Source: a virus. From it: 64,000 nucleotides of DNA. Location of the stretch: positions 64,001 to 128,000 of IMG/VR virus record IMGVR_UViG_3300037466_003065. One strand, written 5' to 3'. Under the pieces are notes generated by a model. The model ran no database searches, was not told the DNA's origin, and worked only from the letters and a program-made list of their open reading frames with translations. The stretch's first letter is position 1. The number at the start of each line of letters is the position of its first letter. Below, one piece after another: positions 22,625 to 62,182 of the stretch. A program made the translations under genes and the position numbers.

Positions 22625-23851
22625 ATGCCACCTCGCATCCTGATCGTTACCCTGACCCTACTGCTCGGCTGGTGCGGTGCGGCCGCGGGCCAGCCGGTCA
22701 CCCGCCCCTCCACCCAGCCGGCGGATCTGGCGTTCATCCCCGACCCGCCGAAGGTCTCGCCGCTGGCCGGCACCAACTGGAAGCCCCGGATCTTCTTCGA
22801 CTACAACGCGACGCCGATCTTCGGGTGGAACCCCAAGTTCGTGAACGACGGCAGGGGAACGGAGCCCGACCGGAACGGGCGGTACTCGTGGGAGCGGAAC
22901 GGCGAGGCGTCCGAGTACCTGCTCAAGTGCGGGTTCACGCCGACGATCATCGCCTACAACGGCACCCTGAACCGTGCGGGCACGTGGTGGAACTTCGACA
23001 CCAACACGTGGGATCCCGGCGTGACCCCCGGCGCGAACCGGTGGGCCGTCCTCTGGAACAAGCCCGATGGCACGACCCGGGAGGGCAACTTCAGCGATCC
23101 GGTCAACCCGCGGGCCGTGGACGCCATCTGTGCCCTCGCCCGAAAGCCGTACGCGTTCGGCGCCCCACTGAAGAGCGCAAGGCCGGTCTGGACGGATATC
23201 GAGGGCACGGCCACCTACAACCCCGACGCCTACGGCCACCCCGGCCCCGTCGAGGCGGTGAAGGTCGCCAAGGCGTGGCTGGGAATGGCCCAGGAGTTCC
23301 GCCGGTGGGGCAACCTGTACACGTACGACCAGGAGCTCTACACCTACGGCGGCCACCTCTGGTGCTACTACGACTACCTCGACGAGAACACCTACGAACA
23401 GAAGCTGAAGGGGGCCGCGACCGCCGAGGAGAAGGCGAAGGCGGCCAAGGAGCTGGGGGCCGTCAGGGAGTTCGCCGCCGTCGAGCGTCAGCACGCCCAC
23501 CTGTACAGCGGCTTCACGGGCTGCACGTACAACGCGAACCAGGTCATCGAGTCCGGGCTGGATGCGTTCGCCCAGGGTGTCGACCGGTATGGGGTGATCG
23601 TCAACAAATACTACCCCGAGTTCCGCGACAACAAGGTGATGTACGTATCGCCGGTGTACACGGTGATGTGGAAGGACTCGCAGGCCGACGAGGTGAAGGC
23701 GCTGGACGGCCAGCCGGTGCCGCTGGATCTCTGGAAGTCCGAGATCGACTACCTCGTCTCGCGAGGGTGGCACGTCTACGTGTGGATGGGGTACACGTAC
23801 GACCTGAAGCCCGTCAAGCCCCACCTCGACTACCTGCTCCGGTTCAAATGA
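22625..23851 (+). CDS. exported glycoside-hydrolase-like (TIM-barrel) protein with signal peptide
   Basis: AAGGAGG RBS; hydrophobic signal MPPRILIVTLTLLLGWCGAAAG; aromatic-rich body, WTDIEG. Confidence 0.5.
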   Translation: MPPRILIVTLTLLLGWCGAAAGQPVTRPSTQPADLAFIPDPPKVSPLAGTNWKPRIFFDYNATPIFGWNPKFVNDGRGTEPDRNGRYSWERNGEASEYLLKCGFTPTIIAYNGTLNRAGTWWNFDTNTWDPGVTPGANRWAVLWNKPDGTTREGNFSDPVNPRAVDAICALARKPYAFGAPLKSARPVWTDIEGTATYNPDAYGHPGPVEAVKVAKAWLGMAQEFRRWGNLYTYDQELYTYGGHLWCYYDYLDENTYEQKLKGAATAEEKAKAAKELGAVREFAAVERQHAHLYSGFTGCTYNANQVIESGLDAFAQGVDRYGVIVNKYYPEFRDNKVMYVSPVYTVMWKDSQADEVKALDGQPVPLDLWKSEIDYLVSRGWHVYVWMGYTYDLKPVKPHLDYLLRFK

Positions 23852-24150
23852 TCTACGTCCACAACCGATCAACCTACCGTGGCCCCGGAGTGAAAGTCTT
23901 CCGGGGCCACTTGCTTGGTAACCGGTACGTCATAGGCCGCGACGGGGATCGGGCCACCGTGATTGCCAAGTTCCGGCGTTGGCTCTGGGCACAACTTCAA
24001 GTCCCTGCGGAGGTGGCCGCGGAAGTCCGGCGGCTCGCCGAGCTCCACCGCCGGGGCGAGGACATTCACCTGATCTGCTGCTGCGTGCCCGACGACTGCC
24101 ACGCATTCGTGATTAAAGCCGCGATCGAGTGGATGGCGATGAGACTGTGA
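23848..24150 (+). CDS. DUF4326-like protein
   Basis: LGNRYVIGRDGDRATVIAKFRRWL...LICCCVPDDCHA. Confidence 0.75.
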   Translation: MIYVHNRSTYRGPGVKVFRGHLLGNRYVIGRDGDRATVIAKFRRWLWAQLQVPAEVAAEVRRLAELHRRGEDIHLICCCVPDDCHAFVIKAAIEWMAMRL

Positions 24151-24843
24151 ATGCCCAAGAAGCAACTGAGCGAAGCTGACGTGTGCAAGGAGATGATCGC
24201 CTACCTGGAGGAGCGAGGCTGGTGCTGCTATCAGGAGGTTTCCTTCAAGGGCGAGCGGGGCCGAGCCGACATCGTCGCCGTGTATGACGGTCGCATCGTC
24301 TGGGTGATCGAGGCCAAGAAGGCCCTGAACCTCGACGTGCTCGCCCAGGCGTACGACTGGGTCGGCGTAGCCCACTACGTGAGCATCGTGGTGCCCTACC
24401 CGGCGCGGGGTGAGTGGGCCAAGAAGGGGTTCGTGAAGCAGGTGCTGGGCGACCAGGGCATCGGCCTGTTCTACACCTGCAAGACATCCGATGTGCGAGT
24501 TGCGACGCCGGTACACGCCCGGCTGAACCGGTCGGCCCACCGCCACACCGAGAAGCTGCTCTCCCAGCTCCGGCCCGAGCACCAGACCTTCGCGGCCGCC
24601 GGCACCAGCGGCACGTTCTGGACGCCATACAAGGAGAGTTGTCGGGAGATCCTGAAGGAGGTCAGCGGCACGCCGGGGATCAATTTCACGGAGCTGATGA
24701 AGCGGGTGGGCAAAATGCACTATTCGTCTCCTTCCTCGGCCCGATCCACGATGTTGAAGCGGATCATTCGGGGGCACGTCCCCGGCGTCCACATCACACG
24801 GGTCGGCAAGGAGTTCCGAGTCTATCCCGGGGCCCAGAAATGA
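24151..24843 (+). CDS. PD-(D/E)XK nuclease-like protein with C-terminal winged helix
   Basis: YQEV...RADIVAV...VIEAKK. Confidence 0.7.
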   Translation: MPKKQLSEADVCKEMIAYLEERGWCCYQEVSFKGERGRADIVAVYDGRIVWVIEAKKALNLDVLAQAYDWVGVAHYVSIVVPYPARGEWAKKGFVKQVLGDQGIGLFYTCKTSDVRVATPVHARLNRSAHRHTEKLLSQLRPEHQTFAAAGTSGTFWTPYKESCREILKEVSGTPGINFTELMKRVGKMHYSSPSSARSTMLKRIIRGHVPGVHITRVGKEFRVYPGAQK

Positions 24844-24920
24844 GAAACCCCCGGGGCGACCGGGGGTTACTCACCTTCAAGGAGGCATCTGTGAGCCCTA
24901 CTCGCAGAGGCCAAGATCGC
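24843..24920 (-). ncRNA. putative ~75-nt small RNA displaying an anti-RBS loop
   Basis: Bounded by a TTGACG-N16-TAGTAT promoter (24953-24926) and a hairpin (24846-24868); internal CUCAC/GUGAG stem encloses AGAUGCCUCCUUGAAG. Confidence 0.5.
24846..24868 (-). terminator. GC-rich hairpin, probable intrinsic terminator of a minus-strand small RNA
   Basis: AACCCCCGG-ggcga-CCGGGGGTT; on the minus strand the stem runs into TTTCTCATTT. Confidence 0.6.
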
Positions 24921-24932
24921 CCGCCATACTAA
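24891..24932 (+). CDS. possible 13-aa peptide (MSPTRRGQDRPPY)
   Basis: GTG 5 nt after AAGGAGG, but the start codon lies in the predicted CTCAC/GTGAG stem. Confidence 0.25.
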   Translation: MSPTRRGQDRPPY

Positions 24933-24953
24933 CAACACGCCTGGGGGCGTCAA
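24926..24953 (-). promoter_or_regulatory. sigma70-type promoter with extended -10
   Basis: Minus strand TTGACG-16 nt-TAGTAT with TG at the extended -10 position. Confidence 0.6.
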
Positions 24954-25035
24954 GAGGAATTTTGCGATTCGTAAACCGGACTCATGCCCGATGCGGGCTG
25001 GGGCCGATATGTCTGGCGTGATGTCCCGTCTGAGC

Positions 25036-25075
25036 GAAGGCCCCCGGTGGTGATGCCCGGGGGCCTTCTTTATTG
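25036..25075 (+). terminator. intrinsic terminator
   Basis: GAAGGCCCCCGG-loop-CCGGGGGCCTTC followed by TTTATT. Confidence 0.8.
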
Positions 25076-25142
25076 CGGATGAAGTCGCTCGTGGGAGCTG
25101 TCGATATCCCGAATGGCAGAGCGCCATTGACGGAGATCCCCC

Positions 25143-25928
25143 ATGAGCAAGATGTCGAATTACCTCGAGAACCTGATCATCGAGCGCCATTTGCGCGGCG
25201 GGGCGTTCACGCCTCCCGCGACGGTGTATCTCGCACTGGCCTCGGGGATCACGGCCGGTGGCGACGGCGACCCCACCGCCTTCAGCGAAGTCTCGACGAC
25301 CAGCACGGGGTATGGTCGTCAGGCGATCACGTTCGGTGCGGCCTCCGGCGGTGCCGCCAGCAACAGCGTTGCGATCTCCTTCAGCCCCGCGACCGCCGAC
25401 TGGGCGTCGGGCTCGAACCTCACGCACTGGGCCATCTACGACGCCTCCACCGGCGGCAACATGCTCTACTGGGGCACCGTCCCCACGCCGGGCACCGTCC
25501 TGAGTGGCGAGACGTTCACCGTCGACGTCGGCAACATCACGGTTACCCTCTCCGGCAACTGGACGACCACCTTCATGAACCAGATCCTGGACGCGACCCT
25601 GCGTGCCCAGGCCCTTCCCGCCCCCACGATCCGCGTCGCCCTGCTCACCGCCTTTACCAACGACTCAACGTTCACCGAGTGCCCGGACAGCAACTACGCC
25701 CGCCTCACGACCACGTGGGGCGCGTCCTCGAACGGCCAGTCCCTGAACGCGGTCGACATCGCGTATGCCGCGATGAACGCCCAGCAGGTGATCACGCACG
25801 TCGCCCTGTTCGATGCGGCGACCGCCGGCAACATGAGCTACCGCGGCCCGCTCGCGGCCAGCAAGACCGTGGGCGCCGGCAAGGTGCTCAAGTTCCTGTC
25901 CGGCCAGTTGTCGATCAACGCTCAGTAA
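25143..25928 (+). CDS. tail/structural protein made of two tandem copies of one domain
   Basis: Both halves follow ...VYLAL/IRVAL...GYGRQAITF/NYARLTTTW...THWAIYDA/THVALFDA.T.GNM pattern. Confidence 0.75.
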   Translation: MSKMSNYLENLIIERHLRGGAFTPPATVYLALASGITAGGDGDPTAFSEVSTTSTGYGRQAITFGAASGGAASNSVAISFSPATADWASGSNLTHWAIYDASTGGNMLYWGTVPTPGTVLSGETFTVDVGNITVTLSGNWTTTFMNQILDATLRAQALPAPTIRVALLTAFTNDSTFTECPDSNYARLTTTWGASSNGQSLNAVDIAYAAMNAQQVITHVALFDAATAGNMSYRGPLAASKTVGAGKVLKFLSGQLSINAQ

Positions 25929-25960
25929 TTCACGGGGGTTCGTCCTGAGACGAGAGGGCC

Positions 25961-26632
25961 ATGAACTACGTCGAGCTATACCAGGTCTTCGTCGCGCCCG
26001 ACCCGAACAGGTCGGACGCCGACATTCTCGCCGCCGCGAACGCGAAGACGTTGGTGCCGAACGGCAAGGGCGAGTTCCGCGCCGGCGAACTGACACTCGC
26101 CGCCGCGCTCGGCCCCAACGCGGTCGCCGACTTCCTGTCGGACGTTCTCGCCGCAGCCAACGGGCCCGACCCGCGGGTCACCCTGTCAAACCCGAACGCG
26201 CCGTCGAACCACACGCTCGATCTGATCTACCGCAAGCTCACCACCGAGGGCGTCGACCTCCGGAATCCGGTGACGCGGGCCATGATCGACGTCCTGCGCA
26301 TCGTGCCGCTCAAGGTGGTCAACGGCGTGCCCACCCCGATCCTCACGTCCGATCAGGCCGAAGCGATCATCAGCCTTGCCTGGGTGGAGAAGTCTCCCGC
26401 CCTCGACGCGATGGGTCGCGACATGGGCCCGGAAGACCTGGCGACCATTCGCCAGATCGGCACGAGGCTCGCCACGTTGAACGCCTGCCGCGGGCGAGTG
26501 CAGCAGTGGTTTCAGCAGTTGCAGCAGGCCCTGAAAGATTTCGCCGTCACCGAGGACGCCCTGACTAACGGCTCCCTCGTCGCCGTCCCGTCGCTCGACG
26601 ACATCAAGGCGAACCTGAGCACGAACGCGTAG
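25961..26632 (+). CDS. hypothetical protein (structural module)
   Basis: GAGAGG RBS, 223 aa. Confidence 0.7.
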   Translation: MNYVELYQVFVAPDPNRSDADILAAANAKTLVPNGKGEFRAGELTLAAALGPNAVADFLSDVLAAANGPDPRVTLSNPNAPSNHTLDLIYRKLTTEGVDLRNPVTRAMIDVLRIVPLKVVNGVPTPILTSDQAEAIISLAWVEKSPALDAMGRDMGPEDLATIRQIGTRLATLNACRGRVQQWFQQLQQALKDFAVTEDALTNGSLVAVPSLDDIKANLSTNA

Positions 26633-26688
26633 GCGTGCCAAGGTCTCGCGTGACGACCTGACCGCAGCCGAGGCGTTGAAGTATCGCC

Positions 26689-29600
26689 ATGTCAACCCTG
26701 TATTCGGACAGCTTCTCGGGCAACCTGACGGCGTACGACCAGTGGGACGGCAACGTCGCGAACAGCGGCGGGCCGTACTACACGATCGCCTCCGGGGCGC
26801 TCCAAGTCGTCGCGAACGGGACGTCCGCGCCGCTGGTCTTGTCGGTCAAGACGAGCAGTCTCGCGGCGTTCGCCAACGGCCAGGTGACGGTCACGGTCAA
26901 GAACCCGAGTTCCACCTGGGACGGCGGGCCGGTCATCCGCATGGTGGACGGCCTCACCATGTACGCGCTGGACGTGTACAACTCCGGCGGGTGGCGGGCC
27001 GACCTCACCCTGTACAGCGGCAGCGGCGCCGGCACCGCCCTCGCGAGCAACACTACGATCGCCGCGCCGGTCGACGGCGACAAGCTGACGATCAAGGCCA
27101 ACGGGACGACGCTGACCGGGTACATCAACGGCGTCCAGGTCGTCACGGTCACGAACTCCACGATCGCGAACGGGCAGCCGGCGATTCACTGGTGGGGGTC
27201 GCCGCAGACGGTGGCGTTCGACGACTTCCTGGTCGAAGACCTGGCGTCGGCCACGGTCAACCAGGCGGACTTCCTGTTCCGCAATGACGACGGGAGCGAG
27301 TCGGCGGCGACCGCGGTCACCACGCAGAACACGAACGCGACGATCCCCGCCGGCACAGCATTTCGCCTCCGCACGGCAATCGTGGGGGTGGACGCCGCGT
27401 CCGTCGTGCCGCAAATCGAGTTCAAGAAGTCGACCGACTCGACCTTCACGGCGATCAAGGCGTCCGGCCTCGCCAGCAACATTGCCAGCGTCGGCACGCT
27501 CGGCACGGGCGTCAGCAGTACCAGTAGTACCACGCTCGCACTGACGACGACGACTAACGGCCTGGCGGTCGGCGACTACGCCATCGTTACGATCTCGGCC
27601 GCCAACACGAGCACGACGGACGGCGACAACGGCGAGGTGTCGTCAGTCACTGACAGCGTGGGCAATACGTGGACGAAGCTGGGCGAACAGACCAACAGTA
27701 ACGCCGCCGCCGCGGGGGGCGTTACGTGCTCGGTCTGGTACTCGCGCGTCACGGTCGCCGCCGCGGTCGGTACCGTGATCACCGCCAACTTCGGGACGGC
27801 ACGGGTCGACAAGTGCATCTCGGGGTGGAAGTTCACGTCCCCGAAGAAGCTGATCCTGTCGGCCACCGCCGTCGCGAACGTCACGGACGGCGGTTCCGGC
27901 TTCGGCTCCGTGTCGTTCTCCGGCCTCGCCTCGAAGCAGCGGGTCTACTTCCGTGCCCTCGCCAAGAAGGCCAACAGCACGACCGCCATCACGGCCTCCA
28001 CCAACTTCACGACGCAGGGCATCACGATCCGGTCGCGTAACAGTACGTCAGCGGTCATCCTCCGCGGCGAGTTCCGGGTCAACGCGAGCACGGGCGAGAC
28101 CAGCAACCCGACACTGGCCGTGACCGGTGACACGGCCGCCGTGTTCGTCGCCATGGAGGAGCAGGAGTACCCGATCACCCTGTCGATCTCGAGCAACATC
28201 TCGGCCGGCGGCACGCAGGCCACCGCCTACGGCCCGATGGCGGCACCCAGCGGATACACGTCCTCCAACTTTTCCGCCGGCAACATCAGCGACGACACCA
28301 ATCCGCTCGCCTCGAAAAGTTTGACGGCCGGTTCGTACACGGAGTACGAGTTTTCGCTGGTGCCCACCTCCGGCGTCGTGGTGAATGGCGACAGCTACCA
28401 GTTCAGGATTACGAACTCCGGCACGGCCCTAACTAACTACAGCACCACGCCGACCCTCACGATCGGCACGCCCGCGTCCGACGTCACGGCCAGTGCAACC
28501 CTCACGGGCACCGCGACGACGTCGATCGCGAAGCTCACCTTTGCACAGGGTGCGTCCACGCTGGCGGGTGCCGCCACCACCTCCTTCACTGGCCGCGCCT
28601 GCCTCATGGGTGCCGCCACGTTGACGGGGGTGGCCGCCACGTCGATCGTTGGGGGCATCTATGCTCGCGGGGCCGCCACGTTGACCGGCCTGGCGAGTAC
28701 GGCCTTCTCCAGCTCGAGCGCGTTCCTCGCCGGTGCCACGCTGACCGGAGTTGCGACCACCGCCATTGCCCGCACCGTGTTCGCCTCCGCGGCGTCCACC
28801 TTGGCGGGCCTGGCCTCGACCACCTTCTCGGGCGCGTCCTACCCGATGGCGGCCGCCACGCTCTCCGGGGCGGCCGCCACCAACTTCGCCAGTTCCGTCT
28901 CTGTGTCTGCGGCCGCGTCGCTCGCGGGCACGGCCGCCACTGCATTCTCGGGCTTTAGCCATGTGGGTGGGGCCGCCTCGTTGACCGGCTCGGCCAACAC
29001 GTCGCTCACGCCCGTCGTGGTGGTGGTGGCGTCGGCGACGCTGGTGGGGTCGGCCGACGACTCCTTCAACACGGGCGCGGAAACCACGGCGAGCATCGCC
29101 CTGACCGGCTCGGCCGAGACCTCCCTGATTCCCACGGTCTACCTGACCGCGTCGGTCTCGCTCATCGGCACCGCCGCCACCTCGATCGCCGCCCGGACGA
29201 ACGTCGCCGGCGCCGCGACACTGACCGGCACGGCCAGCTCCCTACTATCGCCCCGCGTATCCGTCCCCGCGGCGGCGACCCTGACCGGCGTGGCCGCCAC
29301 GTCCTTCGTGGGCAAGTCGTTCGTGCTCAGTGCCGCCACCCTGGTCGGCACCGCATCGCTTTCGTTTTCCCCCACCACTTCGCTGACGGGTGCGGCCTCG
29401 CTGCTGGGGCAGGCTGCGACCTCGCTCACGAAGACCATTGCGGTCGGGGCTTCCGCCTCCCTGTCGTCCACGGCCTCCACCCTGTTCCTGCAAACGGTCA
29501 GCGTGCCGGCCGCCGCGTCCGTGGGTGGCGCGGCCGACACCTCCCCTTTGATTTACCTGGTGTACGCCGGGGCGACCTCGACGCTTACGGGGTCGGCCTC

Positions 29601-36978: not shown

Positions 36979-37002
36979 GGGCCCGCCCCGAAGGGCGGGC
37001 CC
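36979..37002 (-). terminator. terminator-like hairpin directly before an RBS
   Basis: 10-bp stem GGGCCCGCCC/GGGCGGGCCC followed on the minus strand by TTCTTTTG. Confidence 0.75.
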
Positions 37003-41270: not shown

Positions 41271-41650
41271 TACTTGTCCTCCTTGAAGTGATCCGCGATC
41301 GCCTTGTGCACCGCGGTTCCCAGTTCGGTGGCGGCCGGACTGACGTTGTATCCGACGATCCGGTCGGACTCCTCGATCATCTTGAGGGCCACATCCATCT
41401 CGGCCGGGTCGATGTCGATCGCCTCGGCCAGCTTCACCCCGTACGACTCAGCGATCTTCGGGTCGAGATCCATCTCCGTGGCGACGTAGATGATGGGGAT
41501 GCCGCGGTCTTTCGCGGCCTGTATCGCCATCATCTGGTAGTGCATGTTGCCGCGAGGCTCAAGAAGTCTTGGCAGGGCGCCGGCGTCGCACATCACCTCC
41601 TTGGGGATGCCGCTGGGGAACAGCCGCTTTAGGTCTTCTGCTGTGGTCAT
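41270..41650 (-). CDS. short RecA-like fragment protein
   Basis: AAKDRGIPIIYVATEMDLDPKIAESYGV resembles RecA [27 protein letters not shown]; no Walker A. Confidence 0.5.
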   Translation of the reverse strand: MTTAEDLKRLFPSGIPKEVMCDAGALPRLLEPRGNMHYQMMAIQAAKDRGIPIIYVATEMDLDPKIAESYGVKLAEAIDIDPAEMDVALKMIEESDRIVGYNVSPAATELGTAVHKAIADHFKEDK

Positions 41651-45265: not shown

Positions 45266-45283
45266 GATGTCTCCTTGAAAGAA

Positions 45284-45310
45284 GAGGCCCCGCCGAACGG
45301 GCGGGGCCTC
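45284..45310 (-). terminator. terminator-like hairpin directly before an RBS
   Basis: 11-bp stem GAGGCCCCGCC/GGCGGGGCCTC then TTCTTTCAAGGAG on the minus strand. Confidence 0.75.
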
Positions 45311-49427: not shown

Positions 49428-49455
49428 TGACTGCCTCCTTGAAGGCTATGGGGTG

Positions 49456-50353: not shown

Positions 50354-50373
50354 GCTGGCTCCTGAAAAGTGAT

Positions 50374-50402
50374 GGGCCCGGCTGGGGTTGCCAGCCGGGC
50401 CC
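50374..50402 (-). terminator. terminator-like hairpin before an RBS
   Basis: 12-bp stem GGGCCCGGCTGG/CCAGCCGGGCCC then ATCACTTTTCAGGAG. Confidence 0.7.
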
Positions 50403-50426
50403 GGGTCGAAAGAGTAGATGTGGGGG

Positions 50427-52566: not shown

Positions 52567-52622
52567 TGCGATGCTCCTTGAAGAGTTTATTTTTGGACGA
52601 ACGAAAGATATGTTAGTGGGTA

Positions 52623-60254: not shown

Positions 60255-60276
60255 GTGATGCCTCCCAAAAGGAGTG

Positions 60277-60312
60277 GGGCCGGGAACGTGGTTGGGTTCA
60301 CGTTCCCGGCCC
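60277..60312 (-). terminator. terminator-like hairpin before an RBS
   Basis: 14-bp stem GGGCCGGGAACGTG/CACGTTCCCGGCCC then CACTCCTTTTGGGAGG. Confidence 0.75.
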
Positions 60313-60330
60313 CGGGCTAAGAAACACTCG

Positions 60331-62092: not shown

Positions 62093-62182
62093 GATGCCTC
62101 CTGAAGGGGTGAGGGGATTGAACCATTCTTCGGCTTGAAGTCAATGGGATTACATGGGGAATTTCCGGAACATGACCCGGTG

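What the first reader, a model, noticed from the sequence alone, without database searches (positions are those of the whole stretch)
24843..24955. Candidate phage sRNA displaying the complement of the phage's own early-gene RBS motif (global anti-RBS switch)
Seen: on the minus strand a TTGACG-N16-TAGTAT promoter with extended -10 (24953-24926) points at a 9-bp GC hairpin plus U-rich tail (24868-24843), defining a ~75-nt non-coding transcript. Within it G-CUCAC/GUGAG-U pairs to hold a 16-nt loop, AGAUGCCUCCUUGAAG. That loop is the reverse complement of the CTTCAAGGAGGCATC motif in front of about 20 minus-strand genes. Examples: 14-nt perfect pairing to the DUF1257 gene leader (49432-49445); one-bulge pairing at 62093-62107 and 52570-52583; one mismatch at 45266-45279; 11-nt perfect at 41278-41288. 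Established: loop-displayed anti-SD seeds are how many trans-acting sRNAs block initiation. Inference: one RNA, sitting among virion genes, could shut off translation of a whole early regulon (and perhaps host mRNAs with strong SDs).
Basis: partly seen in the sequence, partly recalled or inferred. Interest (0 to 1): 0.88.

Follow-up and report, generated by a model that had tools for sequence, protein, structure and literature searches.

The report
Candidate phage anti-ribosome-site small RNA
A 300-base gap in an uncultured 185-kb phage holds good signals for a roughly 75-base non-coding RNA that mirrors the ribosome-landing sequence used by about 25 of the phage's own genes; it may be a self-made translation brake, but no transcript or related copy could be found to prove it.

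Summary
The sequence facts hold. On the minus strand, TTGACG-N16-TAGTAT with a TGn extension (24953-24926) points at a 9-bp GC hairpin with a U-rich tail (24868-24835). The roughly 75-nt unit is antisense to a perfect CTTCAAGGAGGCATC on the plus strand. That 15-mer ranks 2nd of 2005 GGAG sites for fit to the minus-strand-gene initiation consensus. 25 of 102 minus-strand leaders share at least 9 nt with it, against 2 of 94 plus-strand leaders. The complementarity goes well beyond a generic anti-SD (0 of 200 flank-shuffled controls match it).

The proposed CUCAC/GUGAG stem with a 16-nt loop is not the predicted fold: -25.5 against -38.8 kcal/mol. The MFE fold is a 5' hairpin, a 9-nt open linker UCCUUGAAG, then the terminator.

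No diverged homologue exists in any collection searched. The nearest relatives lack the unit, and no RNA run was listed, so conservation and expression are untested.

The plus strand reads as an ordinary hairpin-RBS-GTG junction with a 13-codon ORF, so a relic of gene loss is a serious rival.

My odds: base-pairing RNA acting on these leaders 0.4, relic 0.3, cis-only antisense 0.15.

Earlier unchecked notes of this scan describe similar candidates in other phages.

The parts
24926..24953 (-). Sigma70-type promoter: -35 TTGACG (24953-24948), 16-nt spacer, TGn (24934-24932), -10 TAGTAT (24931-24926). An A/T-rich stretch (AAAATT) lies just upstream. A 5-bp inverted repeat ACGCC/GGCGT (24950-24937) overlaps the -35 box and the spacer.
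24843..24920 (-). Predicted non-coding transcript of about 75-78 nt. The start is inferred 6-8 nt after the -10 box, and the 3' end lies in the U-tract. Its only ORF is a 15-codon TTG frame with no SD.
   Evidence: the start and the ends are inferred, not observed
24884..24912 (-). 5' stem-loop SL1 (11 pairs with one C.A mismatch; -13.6 kcal/mol). Its 3' arm holds CAGAUGCC, half of the anti-RBS sequence. The same inverted repeat on the plus strand (-15.9 kcal/mol, with a G.U pair in place of the mismatch) buries the GTG start of the mini-ORF.
24875..24883 (-). Predicted single-stranded linker UCCUUGAAG, the accessible part of the seed. It is complementary to CUUCAAGGA, that is the upstream flank plus the first half of the SD.
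   Evidence: unpaired probabilities about 0.6-0.9
24835..24874 (-). Intrinsic terminator for the minus strand: GUGAG/CUCAU outer pairs, a 9-bp GC stem (24868-24846) with a 5-nt loop, and the tail UCUCAUUUCUG. The tail overlaps the TGA stop (24841-24843) of the plus-strand nuclease-like gene.
24875..24932 (+). Plus-strand mirror element: a perfect consensus initiation motif CTTCAAGGAGGCATC (24875-24889), GTG at 24891, then 13 codons and TAA (24930-24932, inside the -10 box of the minus promoter). GC3 is 7 of 13, so it does not look like coding sequence.
   Evidence: codon count read from the sequence
25003..25009 (+). GCCGATA box, the phage's candidate late-promoter -10 element. There are 15 copies on the plus strand against 2 on the minus; 8 of the 15 are intergenic. 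It diverges from the minus promoter, about 50 nt away.
   Evidence: lead from earlier notes e1-5859058 and e1-5859007
25036..25074 (+). Plus-strand intrinsic terminator (12-bp GC stem, -28.7 kcal/mol, tail UUUAUU). This is where read-through transcripts of the upstream operon should end. A terminator sits at the same place before the Gp80 gene in relative L063.
24151..24843 (+). Upstream neighbour: a 230-aa accessory protein. It has weak PD-(D/E)xK nuclease-like N-terminal hits (MmcB-like, Hjc, HSDR_N) and a weak wHTH hit, and it matches phrog_12193.
25143..25928 (+). Downstream neighbour: a Gp80 podophage fibre-like protein (PF23140, 5e-61).

Best explanation
The gap holds a genuine, strain-specific small RNA gene on the minus strand. 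A host-type sigma70 promoter with an extended -10 starts a non-coding RNA of about 75 nt, which ends at its own intrinsic terminator. The RNA folds as a 5' hairpin, a 9-nt open linker (UCCUUGAAG) and a terminator hairpin.

The linker, and after strand invasion the 3' arm of the 5' hairpin (together 5'-GAUGCCUCCUUGAAG-3'), base-pair with the CUUCAAGGAGGCAUC-type initiation region. That motif precedes roughly a quarter of the minus-strand (DNA-metabolism, presumably early or middle) genes. Pairing covers the SD and so hinders 30S binding, which lowers translation of those genes.

Plus-strand read-through transcripts of the nuclease operon carry the perfect complement. They would form a full duplex with the RNA and could titrate it or trigger its cleavage late in infection.

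Shown: the sequence signals, the fold and the complementarity statistics. Inferred: transcription, pairing in vivo, repression and timing.
For: Transcription signals:
- The promoter is the only TGn-extended sigma70-like hit in the 185-kb genome, and one of 15 hits overall. Its chance rate in the shuffled gap is 0.24%.
- A minus-oriented terminator follows 58 nt downstream. No minus-strand gene lies there for it to serve. Its style matches the hairpin-plus-UUCUUU terminators of the minus-strand gene blocks.
- The 82-nt RNA folds better than shuffles (z = -2.9), with the seed partly in an open linker next to the terminator.

Complementarity:
- The templating 15-mer ranks 2nd of 2005 GGAG sites on a flank-only PWM built from minus-gene RBSs. 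It is the only high-ranking (top-20) site that lacks a gene-length ORF behind it.
- Complementarity of at least 9 nt occurs at 25 of 102 minus-strand leaders and at 2 of 94 plus-strand leaders.
- With the CCUCC core fixed, the real flanks give 31 minus-strand leaders at a duplex energy of -18 kcal/mol or better. Flank shuffles give 6.6 +/- 4.3 and 0 of 200 reach the real count. Plus-strand leaders show no enrichment.

The plus-strand copy looks non-functional:
- The 13-codon plus ORF does not look coding, and its start codon is buried in a -15.9 kcal/mol hairpin. The plus-strand copy therefore has no evident job of its own.
- The motif class is rare among plus-strand genes, so its orientation fits a template for a minus-strand RNA.
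Against: - No diverged homologue was found anywhere. Four other assemblies are the same phage, so covariation cannot be tested.
- The nearest relatives lack the unit. L063 has only the plus terminator. L068 has a Peptidase_C1 gene and a secreted-protein gene after the nuclease homologue.
- Whole-RNA cofold energies against all leaders did not beat seed-shuffled controls.
- Complementarity to a consensus RBS is automatic for anything antisense to an RBS-like sequence.
- A GTG sits at the proper spacing on the plus strand, as at a real gene start.
- A sigma70 promoter would act at the same time as the supposed targets.
- The host, and so its promoter rules and its RNA chaperones, are unknown. 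The phage encodes no Hfq.
Confidence: 0.4

Rival explanations
1. Relic junction. The plus-strand hairpin, CTTCAAGGAGGCATC and GTG form one more copy of the phage's standard hairpin/RBS/start gene junction. It was left behind when an accessory gene was lost or truncated at a variable locus. The minus-strand promoter match is fortuitous or newly arisen, and any transcript has no function.
For:
- A start codon sits at the right spacing.
- The locus is variable. The relative L068 carries two extra genes after the nuclease homologue, and L063 has a different upstream gene.
- The unit is an orphan with no conservation.
- The stop of the mini-ORF lies inside the A/T-rich -10 box, as if that box had cut a frame short.
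Against: - This junction type is rare in plus-strand genes (2 of 94).
- The U-tract is on the wrong side of the hairpin for a plus-strand junction.
- A TGn-extended promoter arises in only 0.24% of shuffled gaps.
- The remnant has no homology to any paralogous junction or gene N-terminus in the genome, nor to the relative's genes.
Confidence: 0.3
2. Cis-only antisense RNA. The minus-strand RNA is real, but its only partner is the plus-strand read-through transcript of the DUF4326/nuclease operon. The perfect 75-bp duplex creates an RNase III-type processing or decay site, or transcriptional interference. This sets the 3' end or the level of that mRNA, as lambda OOP does for cII. The match to other RBSs is incidental.
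For: - Perfect complementarity to the plus transcript is guaranteed.
- The plus strand has no good terminator until 25036-25074, so operon transcripts should cross the unit.
- The two terminators and the two promoters are arranged convergently and divergently within 230 nt.
- Phage precedents exist: OOP and sar (PMC12197685).
Against: - This does not explain why the overlapped sequence is a near-perfect consensus (rank 2 of 2005) of a motif class used by the other strand's genes.
- There is no meaningful plus-strand ORF whose translation needs control.
Confidence: 0.15
3. The functional element is on the plus strand. Either a translated 13-residue mini-ORF or leader, or a decoy RBS in the 3' UTR that loads ribosomes or protects the mRNA end, possibly working with the downstream structures and the plus terminator as an attenuator before the fibre gene.
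For: - The SD is perfect and GTG follows at 6 nt.
- The 251-nt plus-strand RNA is very structured (z = -4.4).
- The SL1 inverted repeat is 2.3 kcal/mol more stable on the plus strand, with G.U in place of the C.A mismatch.
- A terminator follows, ahead of the Gp80 gene.
Against: - The start codon is buried in the hairpin.
- GC3 is 7 of 13 and the ORF contains a rare AGA codon.
- The peptide has no run of regulatory codons and is hydrophilic, so it is not like a type I toxin.
- A likely late promoter box (GCCGATA, 25003) lies between the mini-ORF and the terminator, which uncouples them.
- This leaves the minus-strand promoter and U-tract unexplained.
Confidence: 0.08

Closest known systems
sar RNA of Salmonella phage P22 (68/69 nt; review PMC12197685)
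   Same: A small phage RNA made from its own promoter in an intercistronic gap, on the strand opposite to the surrounding operon. It ends at an intrinsic terminator and pairs with a ribosome-binding region to block translation. The size is similar.
   Different: sar has one target, the ant gene that it overlaps, which is a real downstream gene. Here the overlapped RBS leads only a 13-codon frame, and the proposed targets are about 25 unlinked genes on the same strand as the RNA. No sequence or Rfam relationship was found.
c4 antisense repressor RNA of phages P1/P7 (PMC12197685)
   Same: A phage RNA whose exposed complementary segments pair around a ribosome-binding site at a distance (in trans), and whose function depends on its fold.
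   Different: c4 is processed from the same transcript as its target and controls a single operon (icd/ant). The candidate here has its own promoter and terminator and matches a whole class of leaders. Only half of its seed is predicted open.
T4 RegB endoribonuclease (PMC1702504, PMC3014915)
   Same: The same logic is proposed: a phage-made factor that recognises GGAG-containing SD regions with extra flanking sequence in many early mRNAs and inactivates them as a class.
   Different: RegB is a protein nuclease helped by ribosomal protein S1. Here the agent would be an RNA acting by pairing. No RegB homologue was found in this phage, but the control search was also silent, so this result is uninformative.
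C/U-rich anti-SD seed sRNAs of bacteria (for example S. aureus RNAIII and RsaE, B. subtilis RoxS); from my own knowledge, not checked here
   Same: Trans-acting sRNAs that use an exposed CCUCC/UCCC-type motif to occlude SD sequences of several mRNAs.
   Different: Those motifs sit in hairpin loops, are conserved across species and are host-encoded. Here the motif lies in a linker and a stem arm, extends into phage-specific flanks and has no known homologue.
Lambda OOP RNA (77 nt; PMC12197685)
   Same: A short phage antisense RNA with its own promoter and terminator. It is convergent with an operon transcript and forms a duplex with its 3' part.
   Different: OOP overlaps the 3' end of a real gene (cII) and acts through RNase III. 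No RBS mimicry is involved.

Membership tests
Stand-alone bacterial/phage sRNA gene (promoter + Rho-independent terminator, non-coding) | Recognisable promoter on the RNA's strand | tested here: met
   TTGACG-16-TGn-TAGTAT, 9 of 12 matches plus TG. Shuffle rate 0.24%. This is a consensus match only, and the host is unknown.
Stand-alone bacterial/phage sRNA gene (promoter + Rho-independent terminator, non-coding) | Intrinsic terminator on the same strand at sRNA distance | tested here: met
   9-bp GC stem 24868-24846 plus UCUCAUUUCU, 58 nt after the -10 box.
Stand-alone bacterial/phage sRNA gene (promoter + Rho-independent terminator, non-coding) | No plausible protein-coding frame | tested here: met
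   The only minus-strand frame is 15 codons from a TTG with no SD. This was read from the sequence.
Stand-alone bacterial/phage sRNA gene (promoter + Rho-independent terminator, non-coding) | A discrete transcript is observed | not testable with these tools
   No RNA run could be listed for this phage. That says nothing either way.
Stand-alone bacterial/phage sRNA gene (promoter + Rho-independent terminator, non-coding) | Conservation or covariation of the structure in relatives | tested here: inconclusive
   Only copies of the same phage at over 99.9% identity exist. Relatives at 53-58% protein identity lack the unit. No other match was found.
Trans-acting anti-SD sRNA | Seed complementary to target SD regions beyond chance | tested here: met
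   31 minus-strand leaders at -18 kcal/mol or better, against 6.6 +/- 4.3 for flank-shuffled seeds (0 of 200 reach it). 25 of 102 against 2 of 94 leaders share at least 9 nt.
Trans-acting anti-SD sRNA | Seed exposed (loop or single-stranded) in the favoured fold | tested here: inconclusive
   UCCUUGAAG is open and GAUGCC is paired in SL1. The proposed 16-nt loop fold is 13 kcal/mol worse.
Cis-antisense RNA of the sar/OOP type | Overlaps a real target gene on the opposite strand | tested here: inconclusive
   It overlaps a perfect RBS and a GTG, but the frame has only 13 codons and does not look coding. It also overlaps the 3' UTR of the nuclease operon and the stop codon of the nuclease gene.
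Any Rfam family | Covariance-model match | tested here: not met
   Nothing overlaps the minus-strand unit. The nearest match in the gap is ctRNA_pGA1 on the plus strand at 24997-25080, 18.4 bits against a gathering score of 45, E = 2.1.
Type I toxin-antitoxin (small toxin ORF + antisense RNA) | Small hydrophobic toxin peptide opposite the RNA | tested here: not met
   The plus-strand peptide VSPTRRGQDRPPY is 13 residues long, hydrophilic and basic (sequence).

The most novel reading that the evidence does not exclude
The phage makes an RNA that copies the ribosome's own anti-SD and extends it into phage-specific flanks, so that it recognises the leaders of one strand-defined class of about 25-30 of its own genes. 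This would be an RNA counterpart of T4 RegB/RegA that throttles a whole gene class. Late plus-strand read-through transcripts, which carry the perfect complement, would act as a built-in sponge that times its action.
Probability: 0.2. Interest if true: 0.85.

Novelty: new variant of a known kind. Interest (0 to 1): 0.5.

Why it matters
Known phage antisense RNAs that block ribosome-binding sites (sar, c4) each control one gene. Class-wide shut-off of early mRNAs is known only for proteins (T4 RegB and RegA). A phage sRNA aimed at a shared initiation motif would be a new layer of temporal control in large phages. It would also explain why a subset of genes keeps an extended leader motif beyond the SD.

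The candidate gives a compact test system: one 75-nt RNA, defined leaders and compensatory mutations. Unchecked notes from this scan report similar anti-RBS RNA candidates in several unrelated large phages. If any one of them is verified, the class could be general.

As it stands, this example is an orphan. It has good signals, but no evidence of expression or conservation.

Tried and rejected
- RNA evidence: no RNA holder was listed for window 23000-27000, so read laying could not be used.
- Homologues:
  - blastn against INPHARED found only a 112-nt Gp80-gene match to Burkholderia phages DC1 and JC1.
  - The exact 26-mer in viral contigs gave 0 hits.
  - The 15-mer gave 56 scattered single hits, which are ordinary RBSs.
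blastn of the gap against all 244 fetched loci found only the same phage.
  - Protein-anchored searches through both neighbours gave relatives at 58% identity or less, without the unit.
- Rfam at permissive E-values: nothing credible.
- Whole-molecule cofold target scan: 32 leaders at -10 kcal/mol or better, but seed-shuffled controls gave 40 on average. Shuffling opens SL1 and GC-rich RNAs pair promiscuously. I rejected this measure as uninformative and replaced it with the core-fixed flank-shuffle duplex test.
- Paralogy of the gap within the genome, as a test of the relic idea: only short RBS-type matches.
- Type I toxin-antitoxin reading: rejected because the peptide is hydrophilic.
- Leader-peptide attenuator reading: considered unlikely, because there are no regulatory codon runs and a late-promoter-like box lies in between.
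- Phage-encoded Hfq: none found.
- RegB family: no hit, but the control was also silent, so this is uninformative.

Full report
**Context.** The window is bases 64001-128000 of a 184,787-bp IMG/VR virus record, rated complete and about 64% GC. Genes run on the plus strand up to about 31.1 kb and on the minus strand from 31.2 kb to the end of the window.

The finding lies in a 300-bp gap (24844-25142) between two plus-strand genes.
- 24151-24843 encodes a 230-aa protein. It has weak PD-(D/E)xK-nuclease-like and wHTH hits and matches phrog_12193.
- 25143-25928 encodes a Gp80 podophage fibre-like protein (PF23140, 5e-61).
- Further upstream lie a DUF4326 gene and tail-fibre-like genes.
- The minus-strand block holds DNA-metabolism genes such as an NAD-dependent ligase and a PAPS-reductase-like protein.

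**The observation.**
- Promoter. The minus-strand promoter-like site is exactly as described, with a TGn extension. By the same rule, the whole genome has only 15 sites on both strands, 7 of them intergenic, and this is the only one with TGn. Dinucleotide shuffles of the gap give any such site in 7.8% of trials and a TGn site in 0.24%.
- Terminator. 58 nt downstream on the same strand lies a 9-bp GC hairpin followed by UCUCAUUUCU. Among the plus/plus intergenic hairpins listed (stem of at least 7 bp), it has the most T on the minus side (6 of 10). It also resembles the hairpin-plus-UUCUUU terminators of the minus-strand blocks.
- No minus-strand gene lies between the promoter and the terminator.

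**The motif.** CTTCAAGGAGGCATC occurs perfectly at 24875-24889 on the plus strand. I called genes by GC3 frame bias and anchored their leaders on GGAG.
- A subset of minus-strand genes clearly shares cCTTCAaGGAGgCATCatg. Averaged over all 80 leaders, however, the flanks carry only 0.1-0.4 bit per position.
- On a flank-only PWM built from minus-strand genes, the gap copy ranks 2nd of 2005 GGAG sites. Most of the top 40 are minus-strand sites, and about two thirds of them are called gene starts.
- 25 of 102 minus-strand leaders share at least 9 exact nt with it, and 15 share at least 10. Only 2 of 94 plus-strand leaders do.
- With the CCUCC core fixed and only the 13 flank letters shuffled, the real seed gives 31 minus-strand leaders at -18 kcal/mol or better. 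Controls give 6.6 +/- 4.3, and none of 200 reaches 31. Plus-strand leaders show no excess.

**The fold.** The proposed CUCAC/GUGAG stem with a 16-nt loop gives -25.5 kcal/mol when forced. The MFE is -38.8. The favoured fold has three parts:
- SL1 at 24912-24884, -13.6 kcal/mol, with one C.A mismatch;
- a 9-nt open linker, UCCUUGAAG;
- the terminator hairpin, extended by GUGAG/CUCAU pairs.

Only the half of the seed that pairs with CUUCAAGGA is predicted accessible. The GAUGCC half would need SL1 to open.

The same inverted repeat is 2.3 kcal/mol more stable on the plus strand, where G.U replaces C.A, and there it buries the GTG.

**The plus strand.** Read left to right, the gap looks like one of the phage's usual junctions: hairpin, CTTCAAGGAGGCATC, then GTG 6 nt after GGAG. 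The frame, however, stops after 13 codons, at a TAA inside the minus-strand -10 box. It has a GC3 of 7 of 13.
- Further on lies a GCCGATA box (25003-25009). This heptamer occurs 15 times on the plus strand against 2 on the minus, and 8 of the 15 plus copies are intergenic. That supports earlier notes that it marks late promoters.
- Next comes a strong plus-strand terminator (25036-25074).
- A GTCGATA box (25100-25106) and the RBS of the fibre gene follow.
- Transcripts of the upstream operon should therefore cross the candidate RNA gene and end at 25074. They would carry its perfect complement.

**Relatives.**
- Four other assemblies of the same phage are identical across the unit. The single SNP in 5.5 kb is at 24996, outside it.
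- The closest fibre-gene relative (57% identity, L063) has a different upstream gene. A plus-strand terminator and a GCCGATA box precede its fibre gene.
- The closest nuclease relative (53% identity, L068) continues with GCCGATAA, a Peptidase_C1 gene, GCCGATCA and a secreted-protein gene.
- The locus is thus a variable accessory spot, and the unit is an orphan.
- No other search found a homologue.
- No RNA run could be listed.

**Weighing.**
- For a real minus-strand transcription unit: the promoter and a wrong-way terminator coincide, which is hard to get by chance even across all gaps of the genome.
- For trans action: the templated sequence is a near-perfect consensus of a motif class used almost only by genes on the RNA's own strand, and the plus-strand copy has no evident function.
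- Against: any antisense to an RBS-like sequence would show this complementarity. A start codon sits where a gene start would have one. The locus gains and loses genes. The seed is only half open. A sigma70 promoter does not give the late timing that the shut-off idea needs. Nothing shows expression or conservation.

My odds are:

| Reading | Odds |
|---|---|
| Base-pairing RNA acting on these leaders | 0.4 |
| - of which regulon-wide switch | about 0.2 |
| Relic junction | 0.3 |
| Cis-only antisense | 0.15 |
| Plus-strand element | 0.08 |

**Comparison with known systems.** In form and size the unit is closest to P22 sar and lambda OOP. In acting at a distance on RBSs it is closest to P1/P7 c4 (PMC12197685). 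In logic it is closest to T4 RegB, which inactivates early mRNAs at GGAG sites with extended context (PMC1702504). It belongs to no Rfam family and is not a type I toxin-antitoxin pair.

Earlier notes of this scan describe similar anti-RBS RNA candidates in other uncultured large phages. Those are unchecked leads and were not used as evidence.

Noticed in passing
window 25003-25009 (+), and genome-wide: GCCGATA is strongly strand-biased (15 plus, 2 minus), and 8 of the 15 plus copies are intergenic, often just after terminators. Relatives L063 and L068 have GCCGATA/GCCGATAA/GCCGATCA boxes before their homologous late genes. This fits a phage-sigma-dependent late promoter element. The copy in this gap lies upstream of, not after, the plus-strand terminator.
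   Followed up: partly
window 24151-24843 (+) and 23848-24150 (+): An accessory pair sits inside the tail-fibre module: a DUF4326 protein (7e-15) and a 230-aa protein with a D...E-A-K motif. The latter has weak MmcB-like, Hjc and HSDR_N hits plus a weak wHTH hit, so it looks like a PD-(D/E)xK nuclease with a DNA-binding tail. The pair is kept together in relative L068, but the genes downstream differ.
   Followed up: partly
window 24996: The only polymorphism (G/A) in about 5.5 kb shared by five assemblies of this phage lies in this gap, 7 nt upstream of the GCCGATA box.
   Followed up: no
window 24937-24950 (-): A 5-bp inverted repeat ACGCC-N4-GGCGT overlaps the -35 box and the spacer of the candidate promoter. 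It could be an operator, or it could be chance.
   Followed up: no
window 36979-37002, 45284-45310, 50373-50403, 60275-60314 (-): Terminator hairpins in the minus-strand block run straight into the next gene's RBS (for example hairpin + UUCUUUCAAGGAGACAUCAUG). Part of the CTTC/CTTT flank of the extended RBS motif is therefore the terminator U-tract itself.
   Followed up: partly
genome 156400-159700 (outside the window): A large divergent non-coding region carries repeated GGGCGGGGG and CGACAGTCCCAG motifs and several sigma70-like promoters on both strands (-10 ends at 156980, 158180, 159346, 159366). It is probably the early control region or the origin.
   Followed up: no
window 24997-25080 (+): A GCCGATA box followed within about 30 nt by a strong terminator could define a second, plus-strand short transcript of about 55 nt. 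The only Rfam hint is a far sub-threshold ctRNA_pGA1 match (18.4 bits, E = 2.1).
   Followed up: no
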